Position numbers and translations under genes: made by a program
Shown here: one piece after another, positions 1-61,882 of the stretch
Numbering within the stretch: the stretch's first letter is position 1
How the letters are laid out: the number at the start of each line of letters is the position of its first letter
From: Mobula hypostoma
Lineage: Eukaryota
Assembly (NCBI RefSeq): GCF_963921235.1
Contig: NC_086097.1
Coordinates: 39,744,001-39,808,000, forward strand
Reading direction: 5' to 3'
DNA: 64,000 bases
Notes under the pieces: generated by a model
Databases searched by the model: none
Told to the model about the DNA's origin: nothing
Seen by the model: the letters and a program-made list of their open reading frames with translations, nothing else

Positions 1-539
1 GGGAAAATGGTTCTGGTGATTAGTCGGTCAGCCCTGCTCCAGGACTTCACAGGAGCTCGCAAGGCAGTGTCTGAGGATTAATCATCTTCAGCTGATTCAT
101 CAGTAATGTTCAAAGGTTTCAAAGGTACATTTAATGTCAGAGAAATATTTACAATATACATCCTGAAATTCTTTTTCTTCACAACCATCCACAAGAATGA
201 CAGTTAAAGGTTAGAACCCCAAAGCCACCCCCCAGCTTCCCCTTCCCACGCATAAGCAGCAGCAAAGTGACGATCCCCCCCACCAGCAAAATTAGCATCA
301 GTGCCCCCCCCCCACCGAGCACTCAAGCGTGCAGCAAAGCATCAATAAAGACACAGACTTGCAGTACACCAAAGACTACTCGTTCACCCGGTAATTCGAC
401 ATATCACAGGCTCTCTCTCTCTCCCTAATAAGGGAAAAAGAGGTGTCTCCGTTTCACGTTTGGTTAGAAATGGGAATTGTTTTTTGATGATTGCACAATG
501 TTTAATTCTACTTACAACTCCTCAGTAAGTGAAGCAGCC

Positions 540-1190
540 CATACCTGCTTGCAGCAAGACCTAGACAACATTTAGTCATGAATTGTTAAGAGATAAATAA
601 CATTGATAATAAAAGAAATGCTTGACAACAACCATTACAAACAAGAAAGTGTACTTACCAAACATTGATATTCAATGGCATTTTCATTGCAAAGTTCTCC
701 ACCATCAATCTTCTAAAGTCACCATTAATCAGAAGCTGAATGGGATCAGTTACATAAGTACCACAGCTATAAGAACTGATCAGATGATGAATATCCTACA
801 GTGGGTGACCACATCCTGACACCCCAAAGCCTCACTACCATTTACAGCACAGGCCATGAGGTATGATATAATACACTCCGGTAACTCTTGAACTTTAACA
901 TCTTTCAGGACAAAGTAGCACTCCTGAATGGTACTTCGGCCATTATTCTGAACATTCATCCCTTACAAAGTGCCGCACTAGTGACTACAGTGACAAAATG
1001 CACCTCCAGCCCTTTTCTCTACCACAAGGACAGCAGGCAGATGGGAATGCCATCACCTTTGAGTCCTTCTCCATTCTAACTTGACTTGGGACACATATCA
1101 TGAATCTTTCTTCATTGTTGGGTCCAAGTCCTGAAAATTGCTACCCAACATACTGTAACAGTACCTTTACTAGAACCATGTTTAAGAAGG
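540..1190 (+). mobile_element. Old, decayed CR1/L2-group LINE fragment (RT C-terminal part)
   Basis: cagcaagacctagacaacatt (QQDLDNI-like) and later segments resemble the CR1-group ORF2 end; many stops. Confidence 0.5.
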
Positions 1191-1371
1191 CTTTCAGGAA
1201 CATTTCTGAAGGAACTGTTAGATCCGGGCACAGCGGCAGCCTCTCCCCTCTCCAGTACAGAGCAACCAATCAAAAGGCAGGCAGCTGGTGCCTGCCCTCT
1301 GCGCACGCTTCAATGCTTCAATCTCCTTCGATGAGCATGGTGAAAGCTTTCACCAGAACATCTACTGCCTG

Positions 1372-1532
1372 AGTCAGTGGTGGAGGCAGATACACTCGTG
1401 AAGCTTAGGAGACTACTAGACAGGTATGTGGAGGAATTTAAGATGGGGGTTATATGGGAGGCAGGGTTTGAGGGTCGGCACAATATTGTGGGCCGTAGGG
1501 CCTGTAATGTGCTGTACTATTCTATGTTCTAT
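1372..1532 (+). mobile_element. CR1 LINE 3' end
   Basis: VVEADTL..LDRY ORF2 end followed by a tctatgttctatg tail. Confidence 0.8.
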
Positions 1533-2271
1533 GACATTGCGGTCATGGAAACCATTTCCAGGGCAACTGGAATCCATCAATGCTGGCTGATTATTGTTGG
1601 ACACTTAAGCGAGAAGCCTCAGACACTGAGTACAAATGAAATTCATCAACAAAACATTTTTAGCTTTGTTAAACTATTGCAAAGTGTTAGCACCGTTGTG
1701 CAATTAAACACATTATATTCAATGAAAGTTGATTTCTTGTTTCTCCAAATTCCCTATGTGATACAAGTAGTCTGAAATTATATTTGTATTCTGCTTCAAA
1801 TGGTCTATCACATACATAAAAAATTTCAGAGGAAGCAAGACTTTCGAAAAATTTGTTGTCCAGTGTTATTGAAGCAATTGGTGTTCCTCTAATTAAACAG
1901 ATTAGATTTAGATGACAATATATTACTGTATGGGGTAGAATTTCTGACTCACAGCTCCAGTGATGCAGGGTCAATCCAACGTTCAAAGTTCAAAGTAAGT
2001 TTTATTATCGAAGGACATGTACTGTAGGTTACATTATATAAACCTGAGATTCATTTTCCTGTGGGCATACTCTATGGAATGGCAGCTATACCAGGATCAA
2101 TAAAAGATCAACTAGAGTGCTGAAGACAACAATCTGTACAAATGCAGATATATATAACCTGACCTGAGATGCCTTCTGTGTGGAGTTTGTCCGCTTTGCT
2201 TGTGGTTACATGGATTTCTCAGGGTGCTCTTATATTCTTCCATGTCCCAAAGACATGCATGTTGGAAAGTT

Positions 2272-2307
2272 AGTCCTGACGAAGGGTCTCGGCCTGAAAC
2301 GTCGACT
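2272..2307 (+). ncRNA. Minimal type I hammerhead ribozyme motif (Penelope-associated)
   Basis: AGTC-CTGACGA-a-gggtctcggcct-GAAA-C-GTC-GACT: core boxes intact, stem I AGTC/GACT, a stem II, helix III reduced to palindromic ACGT; predicted cleavage after C2303. Confidence 0.75.
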
Positions 2308-2367
2308 GCGCCTCTTCCTATAGATGCTGCCTGGCCTGCTGCGTTCACCAGCAACTTTGATGTGTGT
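2273..2367 (+). mobile_element. Penelope-like element terminal mini-insertion (about 95 bp)
   Basis: 17-bp TSD tgcatgttggaa(a/g)gtta at 2256-2272 and 2368-2384; gatgctgcctggcctgctg end shared with the GIY-YIG-linked copies at 46140 and 62980. Confidence 0.8.
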
Positions 2368-2788
2368 TGCATGTTGGAAGGTTAATTGGTGACTGTAAAT
2401 TTTTCCTAAAGTTTAGGTGTGTGGTAGAACCTGGGGTGAGTTGATGAGAACACAAAGAGATTAGTGCAGGGTTAGTGTAAATGGTGTTTGTTGGTTATTT
2501 CTGACTTGGTGCTGAAAGGCTTGTTTCTATGCTGACCTATGGCTTTTCGGGTAAGTGGAAGGTGAGTAGTGGAAAGACGAGACATGACATAGGAACACGC
2601 TCTTATATGCTGTCTCACTCATAGATCCAGGGCTGTATGGAGACCACTGTGAGCCTTTGCACTGCTGAGTACTGCAAGGCTCTGCAGTGGTGCTTTATTC
2701 CAGTCAGTGGCAACATGACTTCAACTCAGTTCCTCCTGCCCATGTGATCTCTTGTGTATTGAAATCTAGCAGCAGTCGATCACCAGCT

Positions 2789-3378
2789 GTGTACATACAT
2801 CTACTGATGCTTCTGGACACATCTTCAGTGATGTTCCTGGAATCATCGGGTGTTTCAGGTCTTTCAACATCATACATCCTCCTCCAGGTGACCCAGCCGG
2901 GGCTGATCAGACCCCAGCTTGTGTCTAGATGGCTAGCTACTTATGACTCCATGGCTCCCCTCTTTTGAGCCACGGCCATCTTGAGGTCTTCTCTGCCGCA
3001 TCGATGGCTCTCCTCTTCCTCTCTCCCTCGATGCCCAAAATGCTGAAGGCTCTAACTAAAGAACGGGCTACGAATCCCCTACAACCAACCTCCACTGGGA
3101 GACACCTCGCTCTCCATCCAGCCTGCTGACAGTTGCTGACCAGTCCTGCGTTCTTGGAGAGCTTCCTTTCAAAGGCCTCCTCCAAGCTATCTTCCCATGG
3201 GACTGTCAGCTCCAGCAGCACCACTTGCTTAGTAGAGTCAGACGCTAGGACAATGTCTGGTCGCAGGGTGGTGGCTGCGATATGATTGGGGAACTTCAGC
3301 TGCCCTTCGAGGTCCACCAACAGCTGCCAGTCTCTTGCAGAGGTCGGAATGCCTGCAGATGTTCTTTTTCTTGCGACG
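2789..3378 (-). mobile_element. 5'-truncated Hero/R2-superfamily non-LTR retrotransposon (restriction-like endonuclease C-terminus plus 3' UTR)
   Basis: ORF 2937..3416: RDWQLLVDL..LRPDIVL..VVLLELTVPWE..AFERK..PVEVGCRGF, the PD-(D/E)xK-type RLE domain. Confidence 0.85.
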
Positions 3379-3644
3379 GAGTGTGGTTTGTGGCGAAGCT
3401 CATGTGGAACTGGCAATTCTGGCAGACTATGAAGGAATTGTGACTGGGGCCAGGAAACTGCCGCAGTTCCGAACTAACCTTCCAACTTGCACAGTTTAGG
3501 AATGTGAGAGGGAACCACAGCACCTCGGGAAACCCATGTAATCACAGGGAAAACCTGCAAACTCCACACAGGTAGCCTCTGAGATCTGAGAACATTGTGA
3601 CCATCAGCTAAACTATGCCCCTTCTTAGCTGTTGTCGTGCTAAC

Positions 3645-3980
3645 ATCAAAGTCAAATTTATTACCAGACTACGTACATTTCACCACATACAACCCTGAGA
3701 TCATTTTGCTGTGGGCAAACTTAGCAAAGTTATAGAACAGCAACTAAACTGTAAACATCGGGAACTGTTAACCATAAACAAACTGTGCAAATGCAAATAT
3801 AAATAAATAACATGAAATAACAATATAACAGAGTTCTTAAATGAGTGTAGTTATTCCCTTTTGTTCAAAAGCCTGATGGTTGAGGCTGTTCCTGAACCTG
3901 GTGGTGCAGATCCTGAGACTCTTGTACCTTCTACCTGATGGCAGCAGTAAGAAAAGAGCATGGCCTGGGTGGTGGAGTCC
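3645..3980 (-). mobile_element. Rex1/Babar-type LINE 3' end
   Basis: Reverse strand matches the other Rex1 3' ends here (ccatcaggtagaaggtac...caggttcaggaacag; ctttga tail). Confidence 0.75.
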
Positions 3981-6790
3981 CCGCAGAATACCATGACCTG
4001 GGACAGGTATTCAGCAAACAATGAGCTCTTTCCCTGCCTCCGCACCACCCGTACGATTGCGCTATCGACCTTCTCCCCGGGGCCTCGTTACCCACCGTTG
4101 TCTTTATAACTTATCCCGACCGGAGAGAGAGGCCATGGAGAAATACATCAGTGAGTCCCTTGCGGCGGGCATTATTCGACCTTCATCCTCCCTGGTGGGC
4201 ACCGGTTTCTTCTTTGTAGAGAAGGATGGGTCGCTTCATCCCTGTATTGATTACCGAGGCCTAAACAATATAACAGTTAAAAATAAGTACCCACTACCCC
4301 TCATTAACTCGGCATTTAAACCACTTACCGGAGCCACCATCTTCTCGAAGTTAGACCTTCATAGTGCCTACCATCTAGTCAGGATGAGGGATGGAGACGA
4401 GTGGAAGTCAGCCTTTAATACACCTTTGGGCCACCTCGAATACTTGGTCATGCCGTTTGGCCTCACCAATGCCCCCGCCGTTTTTCAAGCCCTCATCAAT
4501 GATGTACTGAGGGACATTATAAATCACTTCCTGTTTGCCTACCTAGATGATATCTTAATATTTTCTAGCAGCCCCCAGAAACACATTCACCATGTCCATC
4601 TAGTCCTCCAGAGACTGTGGGAGAACAAGGTATTTGTGAAGGTGGAGAAATGTGAGTTCCACATCCCTTTGGCCAGCTTCCTGGGCTACATCATCGAGAG
4701 CGGGCAGGTGAGGGCAGATCCTGAGAAGATCCGGACGGTGGAAGAATGGCCCAGACCCACAACCCGCAAGCAACTTCAGCGTTTTTTGGGGTTTGCAAAC
4801 TTTTATCTCCAATTTATCAGGGATTACAGTTGGGTGGTGGCGCCCTTTACCCGACTTACCTCGCCTACCACACCTTTTTGTTGGGACTCCGAGGCTGATT
4901 TGGCATTCACTGCCCTGAAGAGGCGGTTCACAACCTCTCCCAACCTGGTCCAACCGAACCCCTCCCGTCAATTCATTGTTGAGGTTGACGCCTCCGACTC
5001 CGAGGTAGGAGCAGTCCTGTCCCAATGTTCAAGTCCGGATGAAAAGCTTCATCCCTGTGCCTGCTTTTCTTGTTGACTGTCCCCCGCTGAGTGGAATTAC
5101 GACGTGGGGAATTGGGAACTACTGGCGCGGCAGTCAAGCTAGCATTGGAGGAGTGGAGGCACTGGCTGGAGGGGGCGGAATACCCATTTATTGTTTGGAC
5201 TGATCATAAGAACCTGGGATATATTCAGACCGCCAAACGTTTGAGCTCCCACCAGGCCCATTGGGCATTATTTTTTGGATGGCTCAAGTTTTCCCTCATG
5301 TACCATCCAGGGTCCCGGAATGGGAAGCCGGATGCGCTCTCCCGCCAATACGACTCCAAGGAGGACACTTCCAGCCCAGAGACTATCCTCCCACTGTCCT
5401 GTGTGGTGGCAACCCTCACTTGGGAGATTGTCCACAATAAAGGAAGCCCAACGGGATGACCCCAACCCTGGCAATGGACCCGCCGATCGCCTGTTTGTGC
5501 CTGATTCCGTCAGATCTCAGGTTTTCCAGTGGGGGCACACATCTCGGTTTGCCTGCCACCCCGGGAGTGATCGGACCCTGGCTCTCCCGAAAAGACACTT
5601 TTAGTGGCCTTCCATGGAGGTGGATACCCGTTCCTATGTCTCTGCATATTCCATCTGTGCCCGTGGAAAAGCCTCCCATCGGCCACATGTGGGTTTACTT
5701 CGTCCCCTACCTGTCCCTGGTCGTCCTTGGTCTCACATTGCCCTAGATTTCGTCACCAGTCTACCCCCTTTACACAGAAGCACCACCGTACTCACTGTGG
5801 TAGACCAGTTCTCCAAGATGGCACACTTTGTAGCCCTCCCTAAACTCCCTTCTGCTCAGGAAATTACAGACCTTCTCATCCACCACGTCTTCCGCCTCTA
5901 CGGAATCCCCGTGGACATCATCTCCGATCGAAGTCCCCAATTCATCTCGCAGGTATGGAAGGCCTTCTGTCAAGCCTTGGGTGCCTCGGTCAGCCTGTCA
6001 TCTGGCTTCCACTCACAGACGAACGGGCAAACGGAACAGGTCAACCAGGATTTGGAGGTGGTGCTACGTTGCATAACAACCAACAACCCATCTACCTGGA
6101 GTGACCACCTTGCATGGGTTGAGAATGCCCACAACTCTCCGGTTAGTACTGCCATTGGAAGGTCTCCCTTCTAGTGCTCCCTTGGGTATCCATCCCCGCT
6201 ATTCCCCGCGCAAGAAGAGGAGATTGTGGTGCCGTCCATTCAGGCCCATATCGATCGGTGCCGCAAGATTTGGGAGGACCACACACGGACCTGCTGAGAT
6301 CAGCCGATTGCAATAGGAGGATTGCCGATCAACACCGGACTCCTGCGTCTGAGTATCATCTTGGGCAGATGGTGTGGCTTTCATCCAAAGACATCCCTCT
6401 CAAAAACAAGCCTAAGAAACTTGCCCCTCGCTTCCTGGGACCTTTCAAGGTCGAAAGTATCATCAACCCCACAGCAGTCCGACTTAAGCTACCAAGATCT
6501 ATGCACATCCACCCTACTTTTCATGTTTCCCAATTAAAACCACTTTCCATCAGTCCCTTGTGTCCTCCGACCGAAACCCCTCCACCCGCCCGGATCATCG
6601 ACAACCATCCGGCCTACACCGTCTAGCGGCTACTAGATGCGCGCCGTCAGGCAGGAGCCTCCAATACCTGGTCGACTGGGAAGGGTACGGCCCAGAGGAG
6701 CATTCCTGGGTTCCCTGCTCCTTCATCCTGGACCCTTCCCTCATCCAAGACTTCCACCGGGACCATCCGGACAAGCCTGGAGGATTGCCT
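3979..6790 (+). pseudogene. pol: Disrupted gypsy pol: RT (4021-5076), RNase H (about 4970-5460), integrase (5614-6174), GPF/SH3-like region (6174-6626), chromodomain (about 6640-6780)
   Basis: [90 protein letters not shown]; several stops and frameshifts. Confidence 0.93.
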
Positions 6791-6819
6791 GGACACTCCC
6801 ATTGGGGGGGGGCGGGTAT

Positions 6820-7210
6820 TGTCATGGTCCCATCTGGCCATTCCCCATATTTCTATTACCTCCTTAATTGGGCCTTAATCCTCTCATCTGATTTCCAGTC
6901 ATTCCCAGTTTCACTAATTACAGCATACCTGGTTCCCATTAGTGAACATAGGATAAAACTCCGGTGACACAGCCATACTTTGCCAGTTTGTTGGTCGACT
7001 CTAGTGTGAGTAAACCTCGTTTCCTGATTCCTTGGGACTGTCAGTTCTAAGCTCCGCATCATTTCCTGGATACTCTACATAAACCTTGTCTCCGTGTAAA
7101 GATTCCCCTGGATACTGGTTCCCCGTTCGCAGCGGTGCTAACGCCTCAGGACTCTGCCTCCGCGCCTGTGTCCTGCACTTGGGTTCGTCCTCAGCTTTGT
7201 CCTTGCAACA
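6820..7210 (+). repeat. 3' LTR of the gypsy element (about 391 bp)
   Basis: Starts tgtcatgg just after the G-rich PPT (6804-6816) and ends ttgcaaca. Confidence 0.75.
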
Positions 7211-7610
7211 GTGTTCTTTTCTGCAAGTGAGAATGTTTTAACTGATGGCCCTCACTTCCACTATTACAGGTTATTGACAGTCAGTGTTTGTCTGGTGTTG
7301 TAGTCCAAAGGGTATATCAGGATCTCTACACAGAGTAGCAGTGAGATAAATAATCATCTAATTTATTTCAGTCCTTTGGTTCAGGAGTAGATAGTCACCC
7401 AGAAAATTTGCTTGCTCCTTTTTAACTTGTGCCATTAACTTCTCCTGTTAGAAGATTTAACATAGAATGTCGTACAGAACAACACTTTGCTGCTCCCCCC
7501 TCCCTCCCCCTGGTGCCCCATTGAACTCAATGTGGGTGAATGGGGCACCACGTTCAGCATGGACAAATTGGGCTGAAGTTTCTCTACTGTATTACTCTAT
7601 GACTCTAAGT

Positions 7611-7676
7611 CAGGGGTTCCCAACTTTTTTATGCCATGAACCGATAGCATTAAACAAGGGGTTCGTGGGACCCCTG
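7611..7676. mobile_element. 66-bp hAT (Charlie-like) MITE
   Basis: Ends caggggttccca / tgggacccctg; perfect 8-bp TSD ctctaagt at 7603-7610 and 7677-7684. Confidence 0.85.
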
Positions 7677-8710
7677 CTCTAAGTGGTAAATGGTATCTCA
7701 GAGTTTCTCGTACTTCAACTCTTAAAAGGATCTTATCAATTTTATCTCTTCATAGATGTGGCCAAGGCAAGGTTATTTTTTGAAAAACACATAAATGAAT
7801 GGGCGGAAAGTTAACAATCTTGAATTTTAATCTGGGTGAATTGAGACTAGCTCATTATACTGAAAGCTCAGCATGCCTGAGTGCTCATCATGAAACTACT
7901 TTTCAATCAAACAGCCTAATTATGGTTCTTCAGTATTAATGGATGGAAATTATTCTGCAAAACTGTATTCAGGATTTTAAATATTCACAGCAATTAAATG
8001 TATGATAAATGTTAAGACTGATTACTACTTTTGACCTATATTTCTCAAAGTCTATAGTATTCTTGAACAGTTAAATTATATTTTTAAGCCTCAGCATGGA
8101 TGTCAGATCTCATCTGTGCATGACTGACTCACTATATTTTAACAAATCAGTCCCCAGCCTAGGAATCACTGTCATGAGTGGTTTACCTTGGAAGAGTTGC
8201 TTGCCCTCCACATGTACTGTGAAAGGAAGCATTTGATATCCAACTGCTGTGACAGCCAGGAGAATCAACCATCTTGTGATGGAAAGGACAACCCATCATT
8301 CATGAAGTGTCCAATTACTGAATGGTTGTCTCTACTGAATCCAGTCTACATTAAGGTCTTCTAGGAAGCAATCGCTCCAGTAGATATAATTCAAGTAGAG
8401 AAACCATTGGTCCCGCATTTGCAGATTAGTCAGGACAATGATTTTTACTGAGTCTGGCAAATTCATGTAAAATCATGAAAGCAGAAAAAAATGATGACAT
8501 CTGCTCTGCAAATGTGATAATTGCTCTCTGATATTGATTTCCTTTGCTCCAATTTATTCCACTATGGAATAATTTTGTTTTGCACATTCTGATTTTTGAA
8601 ATGAATACACATTGTGACATTAGTGTGGCAGGTAAGGATGCCGTGCTCTTTCCTAATTGACTCTGAGAAAATAGTAGAAAGTTACTTTGAGTATGCATCA
8701 AAAAAGTAAA

Positions 8711-8956
8711 TCTATCATCAGTGTATGTCTATGTCACCATATACTATCTACTATCAGTGTGTATACGTCACCATATACTATCTATTATCAGTGTGTGTAT
8801 ATGTCACCATATACTATCTACTATCAGTGTGTATATGTCACCATATACTATCTATTATCAGTGTGTGTATATGTCACCATATACTATCTACTATCAGTGT
8901 GTATATGTCACCATATACTATCTATTATTAGTGTGTGTATATGTCACCATATACTA
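8711..8956. repeat. Minisatellite: 7 units alternating 36 and 34 bp
   Basis: Unit tcta(t/c)tatcagtgtg(tg)tatatgtcaccatatacta; runs directly into a Rex1-type 3' UTR (8957-9040, minus). Confidence 0.92.
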
Positions 8957-9526
8957 TCCTGAGATTCATTTTCTTGCAGACATTCACAGTAGAACAAAGA
9001 AATACAATAGAATCAATGAAAAGCTACACTCAGACAATGACTGTAGTATTTACAGTAGTTGTATATGGTTCACATGGCTGAAGGTTTTCAGCATTCAGGC
9101 TCAGTAATCATGAAGAAATTGTAGTATACAGTATTTGAGACTGCTGCTTGACCAGGCAAAGAGAAACTCAGGAACTGGTAGCATCCCCACAGGCCAGTGC
9201 TCTTGTCCTTGTAGATGGTAATTTGGAATGTAGGAGAGTAATTGCAGTGTGTTGTGGTGCAGTTACCCACTGGAGCCACGCTGCACTGGCAGGGGCAGGG
9301 GTGGGGGTGGAGTGGATGACTTTAAGGAGATAGGGAGGTTGCCAATTAGTTGTCCTACATTGGATGCTGTGAGTGTCGCTGGTGTTGCACTCATCAAAGG
9401 AATTGGAGAGTATTTCATCACATTCCCAAATTGTACATTTTAGATGGTGGAAAAGCAATGAGATGTCAGACAGTGAACCATTCGCTGAAGAATATTCTGC
9501 TTGGATTCATGTGGGTGATTTGTTCA

Positions 9527-10530
9527 ATATAGATAGATACTTTATTGATCTCAAAGGAAATTATAGTGTCACAGTAGCATTACATTGCACAGATATACAC
9601 ATATTAGAAGAGAAGTAAGAAAGAATAAAAAATAAGTTACCGCAAACAGTCTAACGGGGGGGGGGGGGGGGGCATCACTTCCCTGGCTATAGTTTGACTC
9701 ATTATAGAGCCTAGTGGCTGAGGGCAAGAATGACCTCATAATAGTACACTTTAGAGCAACACAGTTGTCTTACTCTATTACTAAAAGTGCTCTTCTGTTC
9801 AGTCAAAGTGGCATGCAGAGGATAAGAAACATTGTCCAGAATTGCCAGGATTTTACGTAGGGTCCTTTATTCTACCACAGCCTCCAGTGTGTCCAGTTTG
9901 ACTCCTGTAACAGAGCCAGCCTTTCTAATCAGTTTATTGAGCCTGTTGGCATCACACATGTTGATGCCATTTTCCCAGCACGCTACCACATAGAAGTTTG
10001 CACTGGCAACAACGGCTTGGTAGAACATGTGAGGGAGAGGCCTGCATACTCTAAAAGGCCTCTGTCTCCTCAGGAAGTAGAGGTGATTCTGGCCCTTCTT
10101 GTACACAACCTCTGAGTGGTGCTCCACTCAAGTCTGTCATCCAGGTATGTGTAGGTCCTCACTACATCCACATCCTCACCATCAATAGTAACAGGGAGCA
10201 GTGCAGGCTTAGTCTTCCTAAAGTCCATCACCATCTCCTTTGTCTTACTGATGTTGAGCTGCAGATGATGCAGCTTGCACCATTTGACAAAGTCCTCCAC
10301 CAGGGCCCTGTATTCATCGTCACGTCCTCTCTTTATACATGCAACTGTTATTGAGTTACCAGAGAATTTCTGTAGATGACATGACTCAGTGTTGTATCTA
10401 AAGTTTGAGGTATACAGGGTAAACAGGAAGGGAGCCAATACAGTCCCCTGTGGGGCCCCAGCGCTGCTTATAGCCATGTCTGACACACACAGCTCTGAAG
10501 CCACACAAACCGTGGTCTGCCAGTCAGGTC
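9527..10530 (-). mobile_element. 5'-truncated Rex1/Babar LINE inside an older CR1-group fragment (about 9280-10760)
   Basis: ORFs 10070..10504 (GAPQGTVLAPFLFTLYT, LQLNISKTKEMVMDFR) and 9867..10127; (atct)n tail near 9530. Confidence 0.88.
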
Positions 10531-11605
10531 ATATCTTGTCATTACCTACTCTCTGTATGTGATAGTGGGGCAAACAGCAAAGTTAATACCTTCTGCTTAG
10601 AAAAGATAGTTAGACTCGCTCTTGTTTGAGATGGTCATTGCCTCACATTTGAAAGTTTCACGCCCAAATCTGAAAGATGTGTATGTCGTGCTGCACATGA
10701 GAATAGACAGCTTCATCTAAGATGCAACTTTGAATTGAGCAAGCATCAGTGAAATGAAGTTATATAATACAGAAACTGCTCAGCTTGTAAGGACTAAAAA
10801 ACCAGCTTACACCAATTCTATACCATTTTTATTTTGCCCATATAGTTATCAATGAATCCCCCCCCCCCCAAAGTCTCCATCTCACCTACACACACCAGGG
10901 GCACTTTTCAGTGACCAGTTAATCCACCTATTCGCATATCCTTGGAAAGGGGACAGAAACCGGAACACCTGCTAGAAACCTAGGCAGTAACAAAGAGAAG
11001 ATGCAAATTCCAGACAGACAGTATTGGGGATCAGGATCGAATACAGACCAGTCAGTGTAGCCGTGCAGCAGCAGTTCAACAATGTCTCTCACCCCTTTTC
11101 AGTGAGGGAGTGCCAGTGATGATAGATGAGCCTTGGATTATGTTCTGTGGAACTCGCACAGTGAATCACTGTTGCAGAAGTTGTAAGTGTTCAACAACTG
11201 TAGCTGATATTTTTAAGCCTACTGTCCTTTAATATTTTAATTAGCTTGCATCTTGTAAGAATATAATTGCCCAAAGCCAAAATCCTTCTGTTACTCACTA
11301 TTTATTTCTGTCTTCTCACTAAGGGTTCTGGGTCTCCTGCTATGACTTTGGAAGATAATCAGATTTGCTCCTGTGTCCTAATTCATACCAACTTTCCACC
11401 CAATTTGCTGTTGCCAGCAGATAGAATCTAACTGCATTCTCCTGACTTTCCAGCTCAGAACTTCAGATCTTTCATTGCAGCTTTCTTTCAATCATTAAAT
11501 GTGAAGTATAAAAACATGTTTATTCGGAACACGTCTTGAGTTCCTTATCGAAAATTATCATAGTTATTTGACTATCTGCATGATATAGTTGGACATAAAT
11601 ATCCG

Positions 11606-12150
11606 GTTTATTATCACCGGCATGTGTCACAAATTTAAATGTAAATTTAACTTAGCAGCAGCTGTTCAATGCAGTACATAATATAGAAGAAAAAAATAAA
11701 ATAGTAATAAATAAGTAAATGAATTACCTTATATGTATATTAAATAGATTAAAAATCGTGCAAAAAGCAGAGATAACATATATTTGAAAAGTGAGGTAGT
11801 GTTCACGGGTACAATGTCCATTTAGGAATCGGATGGCAGAGGGGAAGAAGCTGTTCCTGAATCACTGAGTGTGTGCCTTCAGGCTTCTGTACCTCCTACC
11901 TGATGGTAACAGTGAGAAAAGGGCATGCCCTGGGTGCTGGAGGGCCTTAATGATGGACGCTGCTTTTCTGAGACACTGCTCCTTGAAGACGTCCTGGGTA
12001 CTTTGTAGACTAGTGCCCAAGATGGAGCCAACTAAACTTACAACCCTCTGCAGCTTCTTTCAGTCCTGTGCAGTAGCCCCCCACCCCCCACCTTTCCCAC
12101 ATGAGACAGTGGTGCAGCCTGTCAGAATGCTGTCCATGGTACTTCTACAG
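11606..12150 (-). mobile_element. Rex1/Babar LINE 3' portion
   Basis: Closely similar to the copy at 39410-40640 (aaatttcgtgacacatgccc...gataataaacc 3' end). Confidence 0.8.
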
Positions 12151-12944
12151 TATAAAAGTTTTTGAGTTAAAACAAGTGCTCCCATATTTTACACACAGTA
12201 CACCATTACTCATAACGGATGGAGCTTAGCAATTCTTGCAGCTTTTATAGCTTGGCTAAAAAAATGTAGGATTCATTTTATTATAAATTACTTCAATGAC
12301 ATCTCTTGTGGTTTAAATGCACATTGATGAGTGCTCTAATTTTAGTTGACTTCATTAGCATCATACAAATGCTTTTGATGAAGTGCTTGGAGAAAGGGAT
12401 GCATTGTTAAAATTTCCTCACTTATTACGTTAATGGCTCAGTGGTGAAATGTCAAAGATGCTGTTCACAGGATGTGATACTCAGCTTTGATGATAATACA
12501 ACCATATTGGAACCCACTCTGTGCTGGCTTAGGTCCAGGCACATGAACCATTACAGCACAATGGCTGTTGTCAACCCTTCTGAACGTTTGTGAGAATTTA
12601 GTAAAACCGGCTCAGTCAGGTGTAAAAACACCACAGTGCAGCTCCTCCTGGAGCTTGCTTATCTCCTGATTAGACAGCCTTCATTGCTGCCTGAAGAAAT
12701 ACTTGCCTATGTTATTAAGATCACATTTTGTCTCAGCTGAAGTGACAGAAATACTTCTCTTATCATGAGCCTGTCAATGAAAACTACAAGAGAAGTTATG
12801 TCGATGTGTCACTGTGTTTTGAGGACAGCAAAGCACAACTCTCAGTGTTTGATGATAGACATGGATTTGAGTCACAGTATCCACCCCATGGTCCATTGAA
12901 AACCTTCGCACGCGGACGCATCACTCAGTAAGGATGATATTTTT

Positions 12945-13195
12945 AGCACGGTAACATAGTGGTTAGTGTAATGCTATTACAGTGTCATTGACCTGGGGTT
13001 CAATCCCATCCCATCTCTAAGGAATTTTTATGTTTTTCCTGTGACCCCCCTGGGTTTCCTATCAGCGCCCTGGTTTCCTCAAACATTCAAAAGACCTACC
13101 GGTTAGTAGGCTAATTGATCAGATGAGTGTAATTGGGCAGAGCGGGCTTGATGAGATGGTAGGGCCTGTTACCTTGCTGTATCTCTGAATAAAAT
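12945..13195 (+). mobile_element. V-domain tRNA-derived SINE
   Basis: Box A taacatagtgg, box B ggttcaatccc, degenerate V-domain gggtttcct...ggtttcctc. Confidence 0.8.
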
Positions 13196-13332
13196 GAAGT
13201 TTAATCTCTATATATGTTAAAATATCAGGATAAATATACATAGAGTAATAGTTACTATGTTGTTTAAAAAAACAAAGTTTAATATCATATTGTGTGTCCA
13301 TTCTAGCTTTGTTCGATTATATCTTTTACAGT

Positions 13333-13700
13333 GAACATAGACCATAGAAACCTACAGCACATTACCGGCCCTTCAGCCCACAATGTTGTGCTGGCCATGT
13401 AACTTACTCTAGAAACTACCTAAAGTTACCCTACCGCATATCCCTCTATTTTTCTAAGCTCCATGTACCTATCTAAGAGTCTCATAAAAGACCCTATTGT
13501 ATCAGCTTCTACCACCGCCGCCAGCAGTGCATTCCACACACCCACCACTCTGTGTGAAGAACTTACTCCTGACGTCCCCTCTATACCTATTTCCAAGCAC
13601 CTTAAAACTATGCCCCCTTGTGCTAGCCAATTCGACCCTGGGAAAAAGCCTCTGGCTATCCACATGATCAATGTCTCTCATCGTATACACCTCTCTCCTC
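13333..13700 (-). mobile_element. CR1 LINE 3' end
   Basis: RVVGVWNALLAAVVEADTIGSFMRLLDRYM; (tctatgg)-type tail. Confidence 0.85.
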
Positions 13701-14202
13701 TGTTCTATGTTCTCTTCACTCACAGCGGGCTCTGTTTCTGGCGTACCTCCCTCACTGCTGCTGAGCAATGCCCACAGAAACAGGAGTGTCTCTGTGTCAC
13801 ACTTGTGGCGAGCTGCTGCTGAGAATTTCACCATGAACTCTGAGCTCCATTGACTGTGCCTTTGAGGACAGTTCGACTGCAGGCTGCGCAGGGTTTCTCA
13901 CTGTGTCAGTGTTAGTGGCAGAACAAAGTGTGAATTTCAATCCGGCTATTTCAAACGCTTATAATAGCATTCAGAACATCTGCGTCATTTATCGATTTTC
14001 AGCTTTGACATTATATGGTTAAATCAATATAATGTGACAAGAGTCATCCTTCTAATATTTGACACAGACAAAAAAATCAGAGCTGTGAGTGGAATTGTTA
14101 TGTTGCAGAATATCTCTTTTGTTTGATTATACACTGCTGTTTCTTTCAAGCTAATCTGATGGTCATGATAGTACTAGAAGCTGCTAAATTGTCAGTACAA
14201 TA

Positions 14203-14216
14203 GTTGTCATAGTAAC
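14203..14216. promoter_or_regulatory. Candidate RFX X-box
   Basis: GTTGTCATAGTAAC fits the near-palindromic GTTRYCATRGYAAC; motif match only. Confidence 0.3.
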
Positions 14217-15807
14217 GATCCAACAGCTTGGCAACCACTAAATCCAGCTGTTCTCAGTTATGTTACTTTTTAAATAAAGCATGTTATTTAATTATCAGCA
14301 ATGCTCATGTGTAGGAAATGCATAATGATCAAGGCGGGGGGGGGTGTGGTGGTGTCGTGAACTTGGAACTGGCGGCACTTAGTTTTTGGAGACTACATAT
14401 GTCATTTGGGGACCTAAGTGGAGTTTGATGTTTAGGTTCTCAGTTCTGAAACAGCCGTGTAGAAGAAAGACATGGATGAGATATAACCTATAGCTCCACT
14501 GGCAATGAAGTAAGATTACCTTTAATGGCTCCTCTTGGCGTGGACACAATAGGACCAAGGCTGCCTTTTGTGCTCTGAGTTTCCCAGATTTCTGGAGATT
14601 GTTTGTAATGAAGTAGTGAGATTGTGATGAGTAGAGCAGCGGCTGGGAGTAGTGGTGTAGATGGTAGGATGTGTCATTTCAATTTGCATTTACTGACCTT
14701 CCTGTGAGTTTAGCTAACCTTTTGCTGCGTTGTTTCAGTGTCCAGGAGGTGTGATGACAGACATTTGTTTTTGAGGCTGTTTGTTCCTGCTACCTTTAGA
14801 ATGGGTGTCAGGAAGTTTTCCTGTTCAGCTGGCGCTCCCCTACTCTCCACCCCCTCGATGAGGGGCAGAGTAGCTTCATGAGCTCAGTGCCTTTTGTGCT
14901 TGCTTTGACCAACAGAACATGGACTCCCAGAGGACCAGACGGTCCTGTGAGTTCAGTCTCTGAGGCCAACGTGAGGGCATCCTTCGGTGGGGTGAGGTGT
15001 GAACTCATGGAAAGCACTTGGCCCAGAAGGTGTACTTGGCTGAGTACTGAAGACCTGAAGAGAGCTGGAATTTGCACATCCATGCTCCCATCATTCTACA
15101 GAGGCATAGTAGAGAGCATCCTAACAAGTTGCATCACTGCTTGGTACGGGAAGTGCACTGTGGTGGGCAGAAATGCTCTACAATGAGTAACAATTATTTA
15201 GTTCTCCTTCCACTTGTCTACAGGAAATGACATTAAACAATCTTGAAACTTGAACTGGCTGGAGTGTTCTCTGATACCTAAAACCTCTTGCTTCAGCAGT
15301 GTGAGGTACCTACCTGTTTCAAGCAGGCTTCAGTTATCCTGGCGCCCAAGAGGAACATGGTAACCTGTCTCAATGACTATCGTCCAATTGCATTTACTTC
15401 CACTGTGATGGAGTGCTTTGAGAGGTTGATCACAAAGCATATCAACTCCCGCCTGAGGAGCGACTTGGAATTGCTCCAATTTGCCTCCCCTCACAATAGG
15501 TCAACAGCAGATGATCAATACTGTCATCTGCTCAAAACTAATCGATAAGACCAAGGCCTCAATACCTCTAGGTGCAACTGGATCTTTGATTCCCTCGCTT
15601 GCAGACACCAATCAGCTCATATTGGCAACAAAATGTCCTCCCCAGTCACCATCAGCACAGGTACACAACAAGACTGTGTGCTTAGCCCCCTGCTTATGAC
15701 TGGTACTTTTTACTTACGACTGTGAGGCTAAGCACAGCTGCAATACCATGTTTAAGTTTGTTAACAATGCCACCTTTGTTGGCCAATTTGAAAGTGGTGA
15801 CAAATCC

Positions 15808-16496
15808 ACCCAGGAGGGGAGAGAAGATGGCGGTACAACGGCAGCACGCGCGGCCACTCCGGTGAATGATATCTGTAATCTGTCAAGTAGGGGACCATGC
15901 ACAATTCTGATTTGACGGAGACAGATGTGAGAGCACAGCGGAACATCTGGAAAATTTCTGAAATGCCTGTTTCGCTGCCGCTGCTACTGTGTGGTAACCG
16001 GAATCTCCAGAGCTGAAGGCCTCGAAATCCTCGGCTTTGCGTGTTTCAGCGGCCGGGGAGAAGTCGAAGGCGCTCGGCAGAGGATGGCGCTCGGGAGGTT
16101 GTATCGGAGAGGCTGGTCGGAAGCTCGAAGTTTTCGGACGGATGGACTCAGTGTCGGCTGTGGTCGGCTGCTTCCAAGATATCGGCAAGTTGACAGTGCC
16201 TGGAGGTTTTTGGCAGGGAGTTTCTCCCTTTTGCCGCCTACTATCGAGGACTTGGGAGTCAATTGACTCGGGACTTTGAGACTTTTTTTTTACTGTGCCC
16301 ATGGTCTGTTCTTCATCAGATTATGGTATTGTTTTGCAGTGTTGTAACTATGTTATAATTGTGTGGTTCTGACAGTGTTAGGCTTTGGTCGGTCCTGTTT
16401 TCTGTGATATCGCTCTGGAGAAACATTGTATCATTTCTTAATGCATGTATGCATTTCTAAATGACAATAAAAGAGGACTGAGTGTTCTCATAAACT
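15808..16496 (+). mobile_element. Non-autonomous, non-coding retroelement, family A
   Basis: Homologous end to end with 56790-57425; 5' aagatggcg; 3' tgacaataaaagaggactg; interrupts Rex1 RT at gacaaatc|agcatatagg. Confidence 0.7.
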
Positions 16497-17021
16497 AATC
16501 AGCATATAGGAGGAAGATTGAAGATCTGACTGAATAGCGCTATGGCAGCAGCCTCTCACTCAAGGTTAGCAAAACCAAAGAGCTACAGGAAGAAGAAAGC
16601 AGAAGTCCATGAGCCAGTCCTCATCAGGGGGTCAGAAGTGGAGAAAGCCAGCAACTTTAAATTCTTTGGCGTTATCATTTCAGAGGAACTGCCCAGGGTC
16701 CAGCATGTAAGTGCCATTGCAAAGAAGGCACGGCAGCGCTTCTGGTTGCTTGGAAGATTTGGGATGTCATCTAAAACTTTGACAAATTTCTGTATGGCCT
16801 GGTATGGAAACAGCAGGCCCTTGAAAGGAAAAGCCTAGAAAAAGCAATGAATACAGCCCAGCCCGTCACAGGTAAAGCCATTGAGCACTTCTACATGGAG
16901 CACTGTCACAGGAAAACAGCATCCATCATAAAGGACACCCACCACCCAGTCCATGCTCTCTTCTTGCTGCTGCCATCAGGAAGGAGGTTCAGGAGCCTTA
17001 GTTCCCACACCACCAGCTTCA

Positions 17022-17953
17022 TTTGAAAGATTTGAAGTACATTTATAATCAAAGAATGTATAAATTATACAACCTTGAGATTTGTTTACTTACAAAGCAA
17101 GAAACCCACAGGAACCCAATTAAAGAGGGAAAAAAATGAAAGACCAACACCCTATGCCCAAGAGAAAGGAAAAAAAAGATAAATTATACAAACAATTGAA
17201 GCGAACAGCAACATTCTGAACCAAATTGAGTCCTCAGGTCGAAAGCCCAGAGCAGCCCAGAGTAGGCCCAAAGGCTCGCTTATCAGTTCATCATATTAAT
17301 GAGCACGGAGCACAAAGCAGTCTGAACAGCAGATTGTACCTCGCACTAGGACACAGCTACTGTGAAGGGCTCAGGGCCTAGACCACACTGCCCAGCGACT
17401 CGCTGTGGGCCCAAATTTCACCGTCCAGTGAGAAGCAGCTCTCAAGCTCTTCAGATCAGCCTGGTGCCCAGAGCAGTCCAACCTTGCACTCGGGACAGTT
17501 GTATGGGCATCGAGAATCCACTGCCCCGACCTCTCTCGGCACCCAGCGCGATCTGAACCCGCACCCGGGCCAGTTGGGCGGGCATCGAGAGTCCACTGCC
17601 CCGACCTCTCTCGGCACCCAGCGCAATCTGAACCCGCACCCGGGCCATTTGGGCGGGCATCGAGAGTCCACTGCCCCGACCTCTCTTGGCACCCAGCGCG
17701 ATCTGAACCCGCACCCGGGCCAGTTGGGCGGGCGTCGAGAATCCACTGCCCCGACCTCTCCTCTCCGACTGGCTCATTCTATCTGCATCGATTCTGCAAG
17801 GCACCATCCCAGCTCATCCCCTGAACCTGTTTCACCTCACTGTTTGCAGCGATTATTCAACACAATTTACCTCAGAAAAGGCATTTTTAGTGATTTGTTT
17901 TTTTTTGCTTTTACCAGTGACCTGTTGCACGCAGTGCTACCTTAACCGGAAGT
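17022..17953 (-). mobile_element. Non-autonomous element, family B, containing a 75-bp tandem array
   Basis: Minus-strand 5' end acttccggttaagg; Rex1-like 3' tail; interrupts Rex1 at ccagcttca|ggaacagtt. Confidence 0.6.
17505..17760. repeat. GC/CpG-rich 75-bp tandem repeat, about 3.4 copies plus a degenerate upstream copy
   Basis: gggc(a/g)tcgaga recurs at 17505, 17580, 17655 and 17730. Confidence 0.92.
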
Positions 17954-18759
17954 TATAATGTTAGTCGGGAACAGTTATAACCCCTCAACCATCAGGCTCC
18001 TGAACCAGAGTGGATAACCATTGAAATGAGACCAACCGATGCACTCACTTTCAAGTACTTCACAACCCATGTTCTCAATATTATTTCTTACTATTTTCAC
18101 AGTATTATTATGGATTTTTCTTTTCGTATTTGCACAATTTGTTGTGGATTGGACATTGGTTGGTTGTCTGTTTGTGTGTTGTTTTTCATTGATTCTATTG
18201 TGTTTCTTTGAATTTACTGTGAATGCCCACAAGAAAATGAATGTCAGGGTGGTATATGGTGACATATTTATTTATCTAAAGAGACAGCATGGAAAAGGCC
18301 CTTCCGGCCCGAGGAGCCACACCACCCAGCAACCCATCTATTTAACATTAGCCTAATCACAGGTTAACTTATAATCACCAATTAATCTACTAACCATTAC
18401 ATCTTTGGATTTTGGGAGGAAACCGCAGTACTGGGAGGAAACCGGAGCACCTGGAGAAAACTCATGCAATCACGGGGAGAACAGATCAATTATGTACATT
18501 GATAATAAATTTACTTTGAACTTTGGGCTTTGAAGTAATGCTGTCAAATTTAATTGATGGTAGCCACTCGTAAGCTGGATTCTACTGATACATAAAGTTG
18601 ATTACCAATGGTTAGTACTGGCTGCCTCCAAGGACCGTTGTAATGAATGGACATTACAGAACTGGTACTCAGCATGCATTGAGATCAGATCACACATGAA
18701 TCACACGTCTTTTAACCCACTCGTTTCTGGTGGCTGTCCAGTTTAACCCCTGTGATATT

Positions 18760-19440
18760 TTATCTCTTGCTTGTTACTACATGCTGTTTACAATCTTTTC
18801 GAGACTCAAGATGCAAGATTGTTCACGGTCATTCGTCAGTACACAAGTGTAAAGGAGGACAGAAGAATTGTTGCTCTGGATCTGATGAAACATATAAAAA
18901 CAATAAGCATAAAGAGCACAATAAAAATAAATCATAATATTAGCTTATGTACAGAGAATGGTTCATGTAGATAAAGTGACGCTGGGTACAGGAGTGCCTA
19001 TACATATGGTGACTCTGACTGGAAATGATAAAATAGTGGTGGTGTGGTGGGTTAATGAGTGGAGGTGTTGATGGCTCGAGGGAAGTAGCTGTTTTTGAGT
19101 CTGGTTGTTGTGTTGTGGACGCCGTACAGCCCCTTCTCTGTTGGGAGTGGCACAAACAGTCCATGAGCAAGGTGGGTGATATTGCTGACCTTTTCCACGG
19201 CACCTTTCTGTATACAGGTATATGTCCCTGATGGTGGGTAGGCTGGTGTCAGTGATGCATGTGTTCCCATCTTTGAGCCCACCTGCCCACTGCAGTGCAG
19301 TTTCCATTAGCACAGTGATGCAGCATGTTAGGATGCTCTCAACTGAGCACTCGTAGAAGGTTGTGCGTATTTATGTCCATTGTCCAGCTGCCTTCTGTTT
19401 CCTCAGAAATATATTGGTCAGCTATCTTGACTGGTGAGCT
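18760..19440 (-). mobile_element. Rex1/Babar LINE 3' portion
   Basis: LFVPLP..TTRLKNSYFPRAI C-terminal motif. Confidence 0.75.
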
Positions 19441-20231
19441 TTCTCTTGCTGTGGTTTTACACTTTTATCTCAGCATTTTGTCTTTATTTTCCATTTTGAA
19501 AATATAGTTCTCACAAGTGATACGTTTTGATTAATCACAATAATCATTGATTTATCCAGTTCTGAATTAAAGATTATTGGGCTGAATCATTAACTCTGAC
19601 CATTAGAAGCTACCTGACCAGCTAATATTTTGCAGCACTGTTTTTATACGAAGTTTTACTCGTGTTTAATTGGTTTCTCTGACATATGGTAACGTTCTTC
19701 AGTAGACAGCAAGAGGACAGATCATTCAGCAGAGGCAAAAGAAACTCCAATTCCCAATCAAGAGAGAGCGGTTTGCATTTTATGGTCTGCTGGGACCTTT
19801 TAAGAGACACTATGATTGGTGTCCTTGCATGAGCTCAAAGAATAAAATGCAATGTTAAAGAGCAACTTCAGCCTAAAGCAGAGTTCCCACAGAGCTTGGA
19901 AAAAAATAGACAAGCTGGAAATATGAAGGGGAAGCGGAAAATCTGAATGCACTCAACAAGTCAGGCACCTGTGGAAAGAGAAACAGGGTAAATGTTTTGG
20001 GTTTGCACTGAGGTGCAGGGGTTAAATCTACACAGCTCCAGCATCTGGATTCAATCCTGATCTTCAGTGCTGAGTGGCTGGTGATTGTGCTTTCTCCCTG
20101 TCACCATACGACTTTCCTCCAGTTTACTCCCACACCTGAGTTTTATAGGTTGATAGGTTAATTGGTGAGAAATAACATCTGGGGAGAATTGATGGGAATG
20201 TGGGAAGAATAGAGTATAGAGAAAGTTAGGT

Positions 20232-27246: not shown

Positions 27247-27466
27247 AAACACAAAATAATCTGCAGATGCTGGGGTCAAAGCAACACTCACAACACGCTG
27301 GAGGAACTCAGCATGTCGGGCAGCATCCGTGGAAATGATCAGTCGACGTTTCAGGCCGGAACCCTTTATTAGGCAGTCCTGACGGAGGGTTCTGGCCCGA
27401 AACGTTGACTGATTGTTTCCACGGATGCTGCCCGACATGCTGAGTTCCTCCAGCGTGTTGTGAGTG
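27247..27466. mobile_element. Palindromic (fold-back) Penelope-terminus mini-element with two opposed, degenerate hammerhead motifs
   Basis: Perfect 51-bp inverted arms 27285-27335 and 27416-27466; perfect 14-bp TSD gtgctccagtgagt at 27233-27246 and 27467-27480. Confidence 0.88.
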
Positions 27467-44860: not shown

Positions 44861-46138
44861 AGGGATCACTTTCTCCAACAATCAGATTTCTGACTATCAA
44901 CCAAAACCCATGAGGTGAGAGCTTAGTTTATGCTGCAGGGAATATGATGCCTAATGTTAGACTTTCACTCAGATTAGAATGCTGAGTTTTACTTAAAAAT
45001 TCTAGGCCAATTCATAAATATTGCAAGAATTTTGTCTCATGGGAAACCTTCTTGATGTGTGCAGTTCTACTCAGTTTACATTTGCAATTTTTATGACATG
45101 CAAGAAATGTCTTCAGGTTTCAATAAAGGAAAATGGTTTAATGCAAAGTTTTGTTACAATATTTTTAAAACCTTGGAGTTCTTCTGTTTTAATGTGTCAT
45201 AAAGCAGAAGGAGAGATGAATTTGCTGTGTTAGATGCTGATACTTTTATTTCATATTATGTTTCCTAGGTACAAGTGTACAACTTGAAAATAATAGAAGC
45301 AATATTGGAATAAAAGCTATTAGAAAGTTGTAGATAATGTAAACAGACGTATGTAGGTCAATGAATAACATTTCTATGTAGATATCATGCTGCGCATCTG
45401 TCTCTATAGGAACGATATATAACAGCGTAGAATCATTTAAAGGTTTAAGATGTTAGCAGCAATTTTTCTTCTTCATATCCTCTAAATAAGTACTTAGAAA
45501 CTTCTGTGAAAGGGCCCTGTTTAGCAATACATCTGTAGGATCTTCAAATAGACTGCCAAATGTGCATGTACTCTCTGCAAATGATTAGACATAGCGTTAC
45601 TCTGCAATTTGTACTAGAGGATAAATGCTTGTCTAAGGTTTGTAATCGCAATAGTCTTTTCTGACACGATTTCACTAGTTTACAAGAATTTGAAAGCTGA
45701 CGAAATTTATTCCATTACTAACGAAAACTTTTTTTTATCTATTATTGAACTTTCAAGTAATGTTTTGAAGCAAATAAAAGTTCTATGCAGGATAAAGGAA
45801 TCTATTTACAAAATGGCCACAAATAAAATTTTTCACCCCATGTTCTTGAGAATTCTTTGTGAAGTGCCTTGCTCTGCTCAGAGTACATCATCTATTGTCT
45901 CCATAGAGTTGTACAGCACAGAATTAAACCCTTCGGTGGTTCCTTAAAAGTGGAGCCACAGGTAGCCAAGGTGCTGAAGAAGACTTTTACAATGCTGACC
46001 TTCATTGAGTATAAAAAGTGGGAGGTTGCCTGGTGATTGGTGAGGCTTTTCTTGGAGTACTGCATTCAGTTTTAAAGATTCGATTATGATTTGTTTGTCA
46101 TGTGTACATCAAAATATTGAAATATACAGTGAAATGAA

Positions 46139-61676: not shown

Positions 61677-61882
61677 CAGACAAGAGAAAATCTGCAGATG
61701 CTGGAAATCTGAGCAACACACACAAAATGCTGGGGGAACTCAGCAGGCCAGGCAGCATCTATGGAAAAGAGTCCATTTGATCTTTTGTCAGGACTGCTGA
61801 AGGGTCTCGGCCCGAAATGTTGACCGTACTTTTTCCCATAGATGCTGCCTTGCCTGTTGAGTTCTTCCAACCATCTCGTGTG
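61677..61882. mobile_element. Second fold-back Penelope-terminus mini-element
   Basis: aactcagcaggccaggcagcatctatgg is inverted relative to ccatagatgctgccttgcctgttgagtt; central CTGCTGA-gggtctcggccc-GAAA. Confidence 0.8.

What the first reader, a model, noticed from the sequence alone, without database searches (positions are those of the whole stretch)
2256..2384. A 95-bp TSD-flanked insertion consisting of an intact minimal hammerhead ribozyme plus a Penelope tail
Seen: the insert lies between 17-bp direct repeats (1 mismatch), begins at stem I of the motif, and has CUGACGA, a stem II, GAAA and ACGUC with no real helix III. Known: Penelope-like elements carry minimal type I hammerheads with a palindromic helix III that are thought to cleave as dimers. 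Inferred: this is the only copy here with an intact core, so it could cleave a host transcript crossing the plus strand. It may represent a very small ribozyme-bearing non-autonomous retroelement.
Basis: partly seen in the sequence, partly recalled or inferred. Interest (0 to 1): 0.75.

Follow-up and report, generated by a model that had tools for sequence, protein, structure and literature searches.

The report
Truncated Penelope stub carrying a hammerhead
This roughly 100-base insert is a recent, cut-short copy of the end of a very abundant Penelope-type jumping gene and not a tiny element of its own; it carries an already described minimal hammerhead ribozyme motif that is likely inactive alone, and it starts at a spot where about a quarter of the sampled sister copies also start.

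Summary
A 17-bp direct repeat flanks an intact minimal hammerhead, and a related organism has the empty site. The insert is not its own family. Window 2268-2370 is 103/103 identical to the terminal repeat of a full-length GIY-YIG Penelope-like element, and 1,285 exact copies of the 98-mer exist, many within long copies. Short copies come from all subfamilies in proportion (p=0.66). The repeat 'mismatch' is an element base, and the insert lacks the 30-40-bp Penelope tail. A likely cause is reverse transcriptase running off an RNA that starts there; release by RNA structure is a close rival. Cleavage of a host transcript is unsupported: published monomers do not cleave, stem II opens with G·U, and no host gene was found. 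The scan noted this hotspot before, in this genome and others. Verdict: an ordinary copy with a modest family-level clue.

The parts
2256..2267 (+). Left target-site duplication copy (12 bp that fit either side of the empty site)
2268..2272 (+). 5' junction: five bases that match the element's pLTR (-5..-1) and, at 4 of 5, the target (microhomology); explains the single 'TSD mismatch'
2271..2308 (+). Minimal type I hammerhead: stem I 2271-2275/2304-2308, CUGACGA 2276-2282, extra A 2283, stem II 2284-2295 opening with G10.1·U11.1, GAAA 2296-2299, palindromic ACGU, predicted cut after 2303
   Evidence: sequence, fold, features from PMC4209133
2309..2370 (+). Rest of the pLTR up to the family's short 3' end (+97); last three bases shared with the target
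2368..2384 (+). Right target copy, equal to the pre-insertion sequence
2172..2470 (+). Older diverged host repeat interrupted by the insert (SINE-like; the V-SINE label is recalled, not tested; ends approximate)
   Evidence: paralogue at window 3475-3571 on the - strand

Best explanation
The insert is a recent, 5'-truncated copy of the terminal repeat of an abundant endonuclease-bearing Penelope-like retroelement, likely made in one abortive round of target-primed reverse transcription and likely a dead end. Shown: its identity to the full-length element, the empty site in organism B, the target duplication, microhomology at both junctions, the short 3' end, and a 5' end inside a family-wide hotspot at the front of the hammerhead, about 30 nt upstream of the cut site. 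Inferred steps: the element's GIY-YIG domain nicked the target with a stagger of about 12-17 nt. The RT primed inside the RNA at the short start site near +95, as shown for the Anolis element (PMC11167929). It copied through an uncut hammerhead, stopped after about 100 nt, and the cDNA end was joined by a 4-base microhomology. For why it stopped there I commit, at about 0.45, to run-off at an RNA 5' end near -5..0, with longer copies needing a jump to the 3' repeat or a tandem template. The hammerhead is inherited cargo and would need a partner copy and probably the element's protein to cut.
For: 103/103 identity to the 5' repeat of full-length L307. That copy has a 1016-aa frame with weak RVT_1 and GIY-YIG hits, below Pfam cut-offs, and a CX4CxxC linker. 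Exact counts: 35,322 of the 36-nt core, 85,845 of a 26-nt 3' anchor, 1,285 of the 98-mer. Most of the 29 identical sisters read run on upstream into pLTR or ORF. 5' ends range from +59 to beyond -1400. Haplotypes of 54 stubs match those of 102 long copies (p=0.66). Hotspot: 57 of 249, seen in three samples (21/98, 22/86, 14/65); 2.6% per nt versus 0.4-0.5% downstream and 0.09-0.16% beyond -33; 0 of 20,000 simulations reach it. Only 3 of 249 start at +31, the cut site. For the RNA-start step: ends lie on the far side of the hairpin, the cDNA hairpin is weak (-2 to -5 kcal/mol), an initiator-like TCAGTT has its A at -5 (motif recalled), and only 2 of 23 copies whose RT came from the ORF stop there versus 57 of 197 (p=0.045).
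Against: Against the RNA-start step, not against truncation. 21 of those 23 ORF-start copies run further upstream (to -1359), so a simple linear RNA starting near 0 cannot be their only template. The contrast weakens to p=0.14 if the window is -8..+6, and those copies are selected for processive runs. Ends spread over 12 nt (mode 0, 7 of 24 simple insertions) and 0 of 24 carry a single untemplated G, although 8 of 24 start on a G that could hide one. In D. virilis Penelope the start site lies 46 bp before a 75-bp intron (PMC2377424) whose 3' end maps to helix I (PMC4209133), so it is not at the hammerhead edge. 32 of the 57 hotspot ends are inverted junctions, where internal microhomologies can shift the apparent end.
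Confidence: 0.88

Rival explanations
1. Same origin, but the 5' hotspot comes from the hammerhead fold, or the protein-bound fold, releasing the RT once it has passed stem I, on an RNA that continues upstream.
For: Peaks at -2..0 and +5 coincide with the 5' arms of the two helices in the predicted -11 kcal/mol rod. Most copies read through (71% of 197; 21 of 23 ORF-start copies), as a partial barrier predicts. The Anolis hammerhead folds actively only with protein (PMC11167929).
Against: An RT usually pauses on entering a stem (recalled), which here would be +31..+35, and few ends lie there. The RNA fold is no more stable than shuffles (z=0.08) and the cDNA hairpin is weak. Stopping is rarer for RT arriving from the ORF (2/23 vs 57/197, borderline).
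Confidence: 0.35
2. A self-propagating non-autonomous mini-element (SINE- or retrozyme-like) that begins at stem I and is mobilised in trans by the Penelope protein.
For: About 8 of 98 unselected copies are simple TSD-flanked stubs starting at -6..+6, which extrapolates to several thousand in the genome. A 2026 preprint derives non-LTR retrozymes from pLTRs (10.64898/2026.07.22.740005), and pLTRs can act in trans (PMC3846280).
Against: No fixed 5' end, no private sequence, the same haplotype mix as long copies, no tandem units, no sequence past +97, which in the Anolis element holds the protein-binding region (PMC11167929), and none of the upstream pLTR.
Confidence: 0.07
3. The motif acts on the host: it cleaves a plus-strand transcript crossing the locus, alone or paired with the identical core 3.8 kb upstream.
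For: Core nucleotides are intact, and an identical same-strand core lies at L033:8503, so a cis dimer is geometrically possible.
Against: Monomeric min-HHR gave no detectable cleavage and dimers only low cleavage (PMC4209133). Stem II opens with G·U, not the conserved G10.1-C11.1. The predicted best monomer and dimer folds pair the core (-11.0 and -30.3 kcal/mol versus -7.0 and -9.8 for hammerhead-like arrangements). The insertion is recent, absent in a relative about 2% divergent, with no sign of conservation.
Confidence: 0.05
4. The hotspot reflects splicing: a CAG/TAG acceptor behind a pyrimidine tract ends at -4 or 0, like the D. virilis intron that ends at helix I.
For: Acceptor-like AG at -5/-4 and -1/0 with a branch-like motif upstream; precedent in PMC4209133.
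Against: 0 of 57 hotspot copies have upstream element sequence joined in direct orientation (>=12 nt within 80 nt), so no spliced exon was seen, and the whole pLTR is pyrimidine-rich.
Confidence: 0.08

Closest known systems
5'-truncated insertions of EN+ Penelope-like elements, Neptune/Nematis type (PMC8557442, PMC3846280; passages read)
   Same: C-terminal GIY-YIG domain, CX2-5CxxC linker, pLTR with hammerhead, heavy 5' truncation, inverted 5' partners, optional 30-40-bp tail, TSDs and microhomology junctions.
   Different: Here the 5' ends pile up at the hammerhead's front edge. I did not find this described in the passages read or in searches; supplements were not read.
Minimal hammerheads (min-HHR) of metazoan PLEs (Cervera and de la Peña 2014, PMC4209133; parts 1-2 of 4 read)
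   Same: Type I core, extra nucleotide between 9 and 10.1, palindromic 15.2-16.2 without a loop, 4-5-bp stem I, most copies single and attributed to truncated PLEs.
   Different: Stem II is 4 bp and opens with G·U in this family (239 of 279 motif hits in the fetched DNA have U at 11.1, 39 have C).
Poseidon element of Anolis carolinensis, PAc (Frangieh et al. 2024, PMC11167929; parts 1-2 of 4 read)
   Same: Two 3' ends about 35-40 nt apart matching two internal RT start sites; hammerhead cleavage not needed for insertion.
   Different: In PAc the ORF starts in stem II; here the ATG is at +169, and the protein has the Neptune/Nematis linker.
Non-LTR retrozymes (10.64898/2026.07.22.740005; part 1 of 5 and passages read)
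   Same: Short non-coding, hammerhead-bearing, pLTR-related sequence.
   Different: Retrozymes are defined by tandem units each with a hammerhead; this is a single unit identical to the autonomous element's end.

Membership tests
Copy of an EN+ Penelope-like element (Neptune/Nematis type) | Sequence continuous with an ORF encoding RT plus C-terminal GIY-YIG endonuclease | tested here: met
   103/103 to L307; GIY-YIG E=3e-4 to 2e-3 and RVT_1 E=0.0045, all below Pfam cut-offs; YIDD motif seen in L018 and L088 but out of frame in L307
Copy of an EN+ Penelope-like element (Neptune/Nematis type) | CX2-5CxxC linker before the GIY-YIG domain | tested here: met
   C-x4-C-x2-C motif in the translation; criterion from PMC8557442
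Copy of an EN+ Penelope-like element (Neptune/Nematis type) | pLTRs, inverted partners, optional 30-40-bp tail, TSD | tested here: met
   L307 has a repeat at both ends; 95 of 250 copies have inverted 5' junctions; 3' ends bimodal; TSDs 9-19 bp in 51 copies
Copy of an EN+ Penelope-like element (Neptune/Nematis type) | Placement in the Neptune versus Nematis clade by RT tree | not tested
PLE minimal hammerhead | CUGANGA and GAAA core, extra base after A9, palindromic 15.2-16.2, stem I of 4-5 bp | tested here: met
PLE minimal hammerhead | G10.1-C11.1 pair opening stem II | tested here: not met
   G2284·U2295 wobble, shared by the young family including L307; a conserved trait in PMC4209133, not part of the core
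PLE minimal hammerhead | Self-cleavage after C17 as a dimer | not testable with these tools
   Needs in vitro assay
Non-autonomous (SINE-like) family | Fixed 5' end shared by members | tested here: not met
   Simple stubs start at ten different positions from -5 to +6
Non-autonomous (SINE-like) family | Own lineage with diagnostic changes | tested here: not met
   Haplotype mix equal to long copies, p=0.66; 16 simple stubs alone p=0.40
Non-LTR retrozyme | Tandem units each holding a hammerhead | tested here: not met
   Single unit; nearest same-strand core 3.8 kb away in a separate insertion
Non-LTR retrozyme | Circular RNA from the locus | not testable with these tools
   Only assembled contigs of guessed RNA runs were available

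The most novel reading that the evidence does not exclude
These stubs are integrated 'strong-stop' cDNAs. The element's RNA begins at the front of the hammerhead, the hammerhead-plus-tail segment is a terminal redundancy like a retroviral R region, and the RT primed about 100 nt in must jump to the 3' repeat to make long copies and pseudo-LTRs; failed jumps leave thousands of 100-bp stubs such as this one. This would explain how Penelope elements rebuild their pseudo-LTRs without hammerhead cleavage.
Probability: 0.3. Interest if true: 0.6.

Novelty: new member of a known kind. Interest (0 to 1): 0.24.

Why it matters
The single insert matters little: it is one of tens of thousands of like copies. 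The family-level pattern bears on an open question, how Penelope-like elements that prime inside their RNA make full-length copies with pseudo-LTRs and what the hammerhead does. Copy ends avoid the cut site and crowd at the motif's front edge, which favours uncut templates and gives a precise position to test by 5'-end mapping and in vitro RT. The insertion is also a clean presence/absence marker between organisms A and B.

Tried and rejected
Rfam: no hammerhead model reached threshold. DNA search of the own genome with the 95-bp insert returned nothing, since that search skips very common words. Cleavage-defined 5' end: rejected, 3 of 249 ends at +31. Cap-derived extra G (lead from e1-8622314): not seen as a single added G in 24 simple stubs, but not resolvable for the 8 that start on G. 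cDNA fold-back as the cause: predicted hairpin too weak. Spliced template: no exon junction seen. Repeated hits at the same host-repeat spot (lead from e1-8641633 and e1-8153981): a BLAST of the two flanks against all fetched loci found no second insertion there, a weak test because the host copy is diverged. Host gene: 146 of 246 unmasked frames of 45 aa or more were scanned with Pfam; at or above Pfam's cut-off only Gypsy-type domains rang, and three weak hits (E 5e-4 to 9e-3) were not followed up. No RNA holder was listed, and contigs of four guessed RNA runs showed only repeat pieces and no convincing spliced joint among the rows shown for 1-20000; this is no evidence on expression. PDB sequence search with the RT-EN part found nothing. 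No separate sample of long-3'-end copies was obtained, so that class rests on 43 copies of set A (6 in the hotspot, versus 15 of 55 short-end copies). Rows dropped: the window's own copy; 2 of the first 100 anchors not fetched; 10 of 100 listed places and 34 of 100 not fetched; duplicates between sets removed. 25 copies run off their locus and count as long. One search stopped with a statistics error after printing its table; one search finished it.

Full report
Numbering: position 0 is window 2273, the first base after the left 17-bp repeat. The window is G000:C1:39744001-39808000 in a 3.48-Gb genome. The repeat content suggests a cartilaginous fish; that is recalled, not tested.

Observation. 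The 17-bp repeats (2256-2272, 2368-2384, one mismatch) and the 95 bp between them are there. A contig from organism B spans the locus and skips exactly 112 bases, with 12 letters fitting on either side, so this is a real and recent insertion; the flanks differ by roughly 2%. A paralogous host repeat in the window holds the target once. Rfam finds no hammerhead.

What it belongs to. A 36-nt stretch of the motif occurs 35,322 times exactly in the genome, a 26-nt 3' anchor 85,845 times and the whole 98-mer 1,285 times; the reversed controls occur 0 times. Longer copies run upstream through a 300-nt pyrimidine-rich region into an ORF ending in a GIY-YIG domain. L307 is a full-length copy with a repeat at both ends, an ATG at +169 and a 1016-aa frame whose catalytic RT motif is out of frame. 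Pfam gives weak GIY-YIG and RVT_1 hits below cut-off (none at E<=0.001 for L307). The linker has the CX2-5CxxC motif of Neptune/Nematis elements (PMC8557442, passages). Window 2268-2370 matches L307's 5' repeat at 103 of 103 bases.

Junctions. The element reads on upstream with the same five bases as 2268-2272, and its next three bases match 2368-2370. The mismatch in the left repeat is therefore best read as an element base at a microhomology junction, and the clean duplication is 9-12 bp. 3' ends of 98 unselected copies are bimodal, 55 short and 43 long, and head-to-head pairs usually have one of each. This fits the known optional 30-40-bp tail and the two internal RT start sites of the Anolis element (PMC11167929). 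The window copy has the short end, so it lacks the tail.

I mapped 5' ends of 249 copies chosen by their 3' part only: set A, 98 of the first 100 anchors; sets B and C, 86 and 65 short-end copies spread along C1; own copy excluded. Ends run from +59 to beyond -1400. 57 lie in -6..+6, against 14 and 15 in the neighbouring 13-nt bins, in all three sets (21/98, 22/86, 14/65). The stop rate is 2.6% per nt there, 0.4-0.5% downstream, 0.6-0.8% at -7..-32 and 0.09-0.16% beyond -33; 0 of 20,000 uniform simulations reach the peak. Among 50 simple TSD-flanked copies 17 lie in the peak. Only 3 of 249 start at +31, the cut site. So ends are neither random nor fixed.

Own family or by-product? Simple stubs start at ten positions from -5 to +6. 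The five-site haplotypes of 54 stubs match those of 102 long copies (p=0.66). Of 29 sisters identical over 98 nt, most are long copies. The stubs are thus made again and again by the autonomous element and show no lineage of their own.

Why ends crowd there (inferred). For an RNA start near -5..0: the sharp fall upstream, ends on the far side of the hairpin, a weak cDNA hairpin, an initiator-like hexamer with A at -5 (recalled motif), and fewer stops among copies whose RT arrived from the ORF (2 of 23 versus 57 of 197, p=0.045). Against: that contrast is p=0.14 with a window to -8, and those copies are selected for processivity; 21 of the 23 continue upstream, so jumps or tandem templates are needed; no single untemplated G in 24 simple stubs; the one mapped Penelope start site lies about 120 nt before its hammerhead (PMC2377424 passages, PMC4209133); and 32 of 57 peak ends are inverted junctions. 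I put RNA start at about 0.45, structural release at 0.35 and the rest on splicing or junction microhomology.

Is the ribozyme active here? The core is intact, but stem II opens with G·U where G10.1-C11.1 is conserved (PMC4209133); this is a trait of the young family (239 of 279 hits). The best predicted monomer fold pairs G5-G8 with 15.2-17 into a rod no more stable than shuffles (z=0.08), and the best dimer fold is also not the hammerhead; such folding models ignore tertiary contacts. Published single min-HHRs did not cleave and dimers cleaved weakly (PMC4209133); the Anolis one needed protein (PMC11167929). An identical same-strand core sits 3.8 kb upstream, so a cis dimer is possible if a transcript spans both, but none was identified.

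What is known. Dispersed single min-HHRs 'probably related to truncated PLEs' were described in 2014 (PMC4209133). Truncation, inversion, tails and TSDs are standard PLE anatomy (PMC8557442, PMC3846280, passages). I found no printed account of a 5'-end hotspot at the hammerhead edge in searches; supplements, such as the coverage plots of PMC11167929, were not read and may bear on this. The scan itself has noted the hotspot before, twice in this genome and in several others. My reading was written down before I saw those notes, and they are not independent support.

Verdict. An ordinary truncated copy of a known kind of element, correctly spotted. The claims of a separate mini-element and of host-RNA cleavage are not supported. 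The family-level hotspot is real and testable. Interest 0.24.

Noticed in passing
L033:8503 (3.8 kb before window 2276), + strand: An identical intact hammerhead core on the same strand, at the end of a 1.3-kb copy with an inverted partner.
   Followed up: partly
L316, L320, L330: Three of 30 ORF-start copies begin at exactly -39 with unrelated flanks; possibly a second start or stop site.
   Followed up: no
L307:2535-5582 (-): Full-length copy with an open 1016-aa frame, but compensating frameshifts put the YIDD region out of frame.
   Followed up: partly
L122 and L098, 3' flanks: By eye these copies sit in the same region of a similar host SINE-like repeat as the window insert; the flank BLAST did not pick them up.
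   Followed up: partly
L001/L002, L057/L058, L074/L075, L085, L088, L090, L121, L143/L144 and others: Head-to-head pairs nearly always combine one short and one long 3' end, as twin priming at two RT start sites would give.
   Followed up: partly
window 27304-27447, 61713-61864, 46134-46231, 62994-63076, 39356-39392, 34323-34369: Older, 75-85% similar Penelope pLTR fragments with damaged or cut hammerhead cores, two as inverted pairs.
   Followed up: no
window 3997-6967 (+): Decayed Gypsy-type LTR retrotransposon pol region with RT, RNase H, integrase, SH3 and chromodomain pieces.
   Followed up: no
window 45691-45740 (+): An A/T-rich match to the loose hammerhead pattern, unrelated to the family; probably chance.
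   Followed up: no
L125 and L126: Two identical stub insertions 4 kb apart with the same flanks: a local duplication made after insertion.
   Followed up: no
window 2631 and 2684: Organism B's contig has 7 and 15 extra bases here relative to the window.
   Followed up: no
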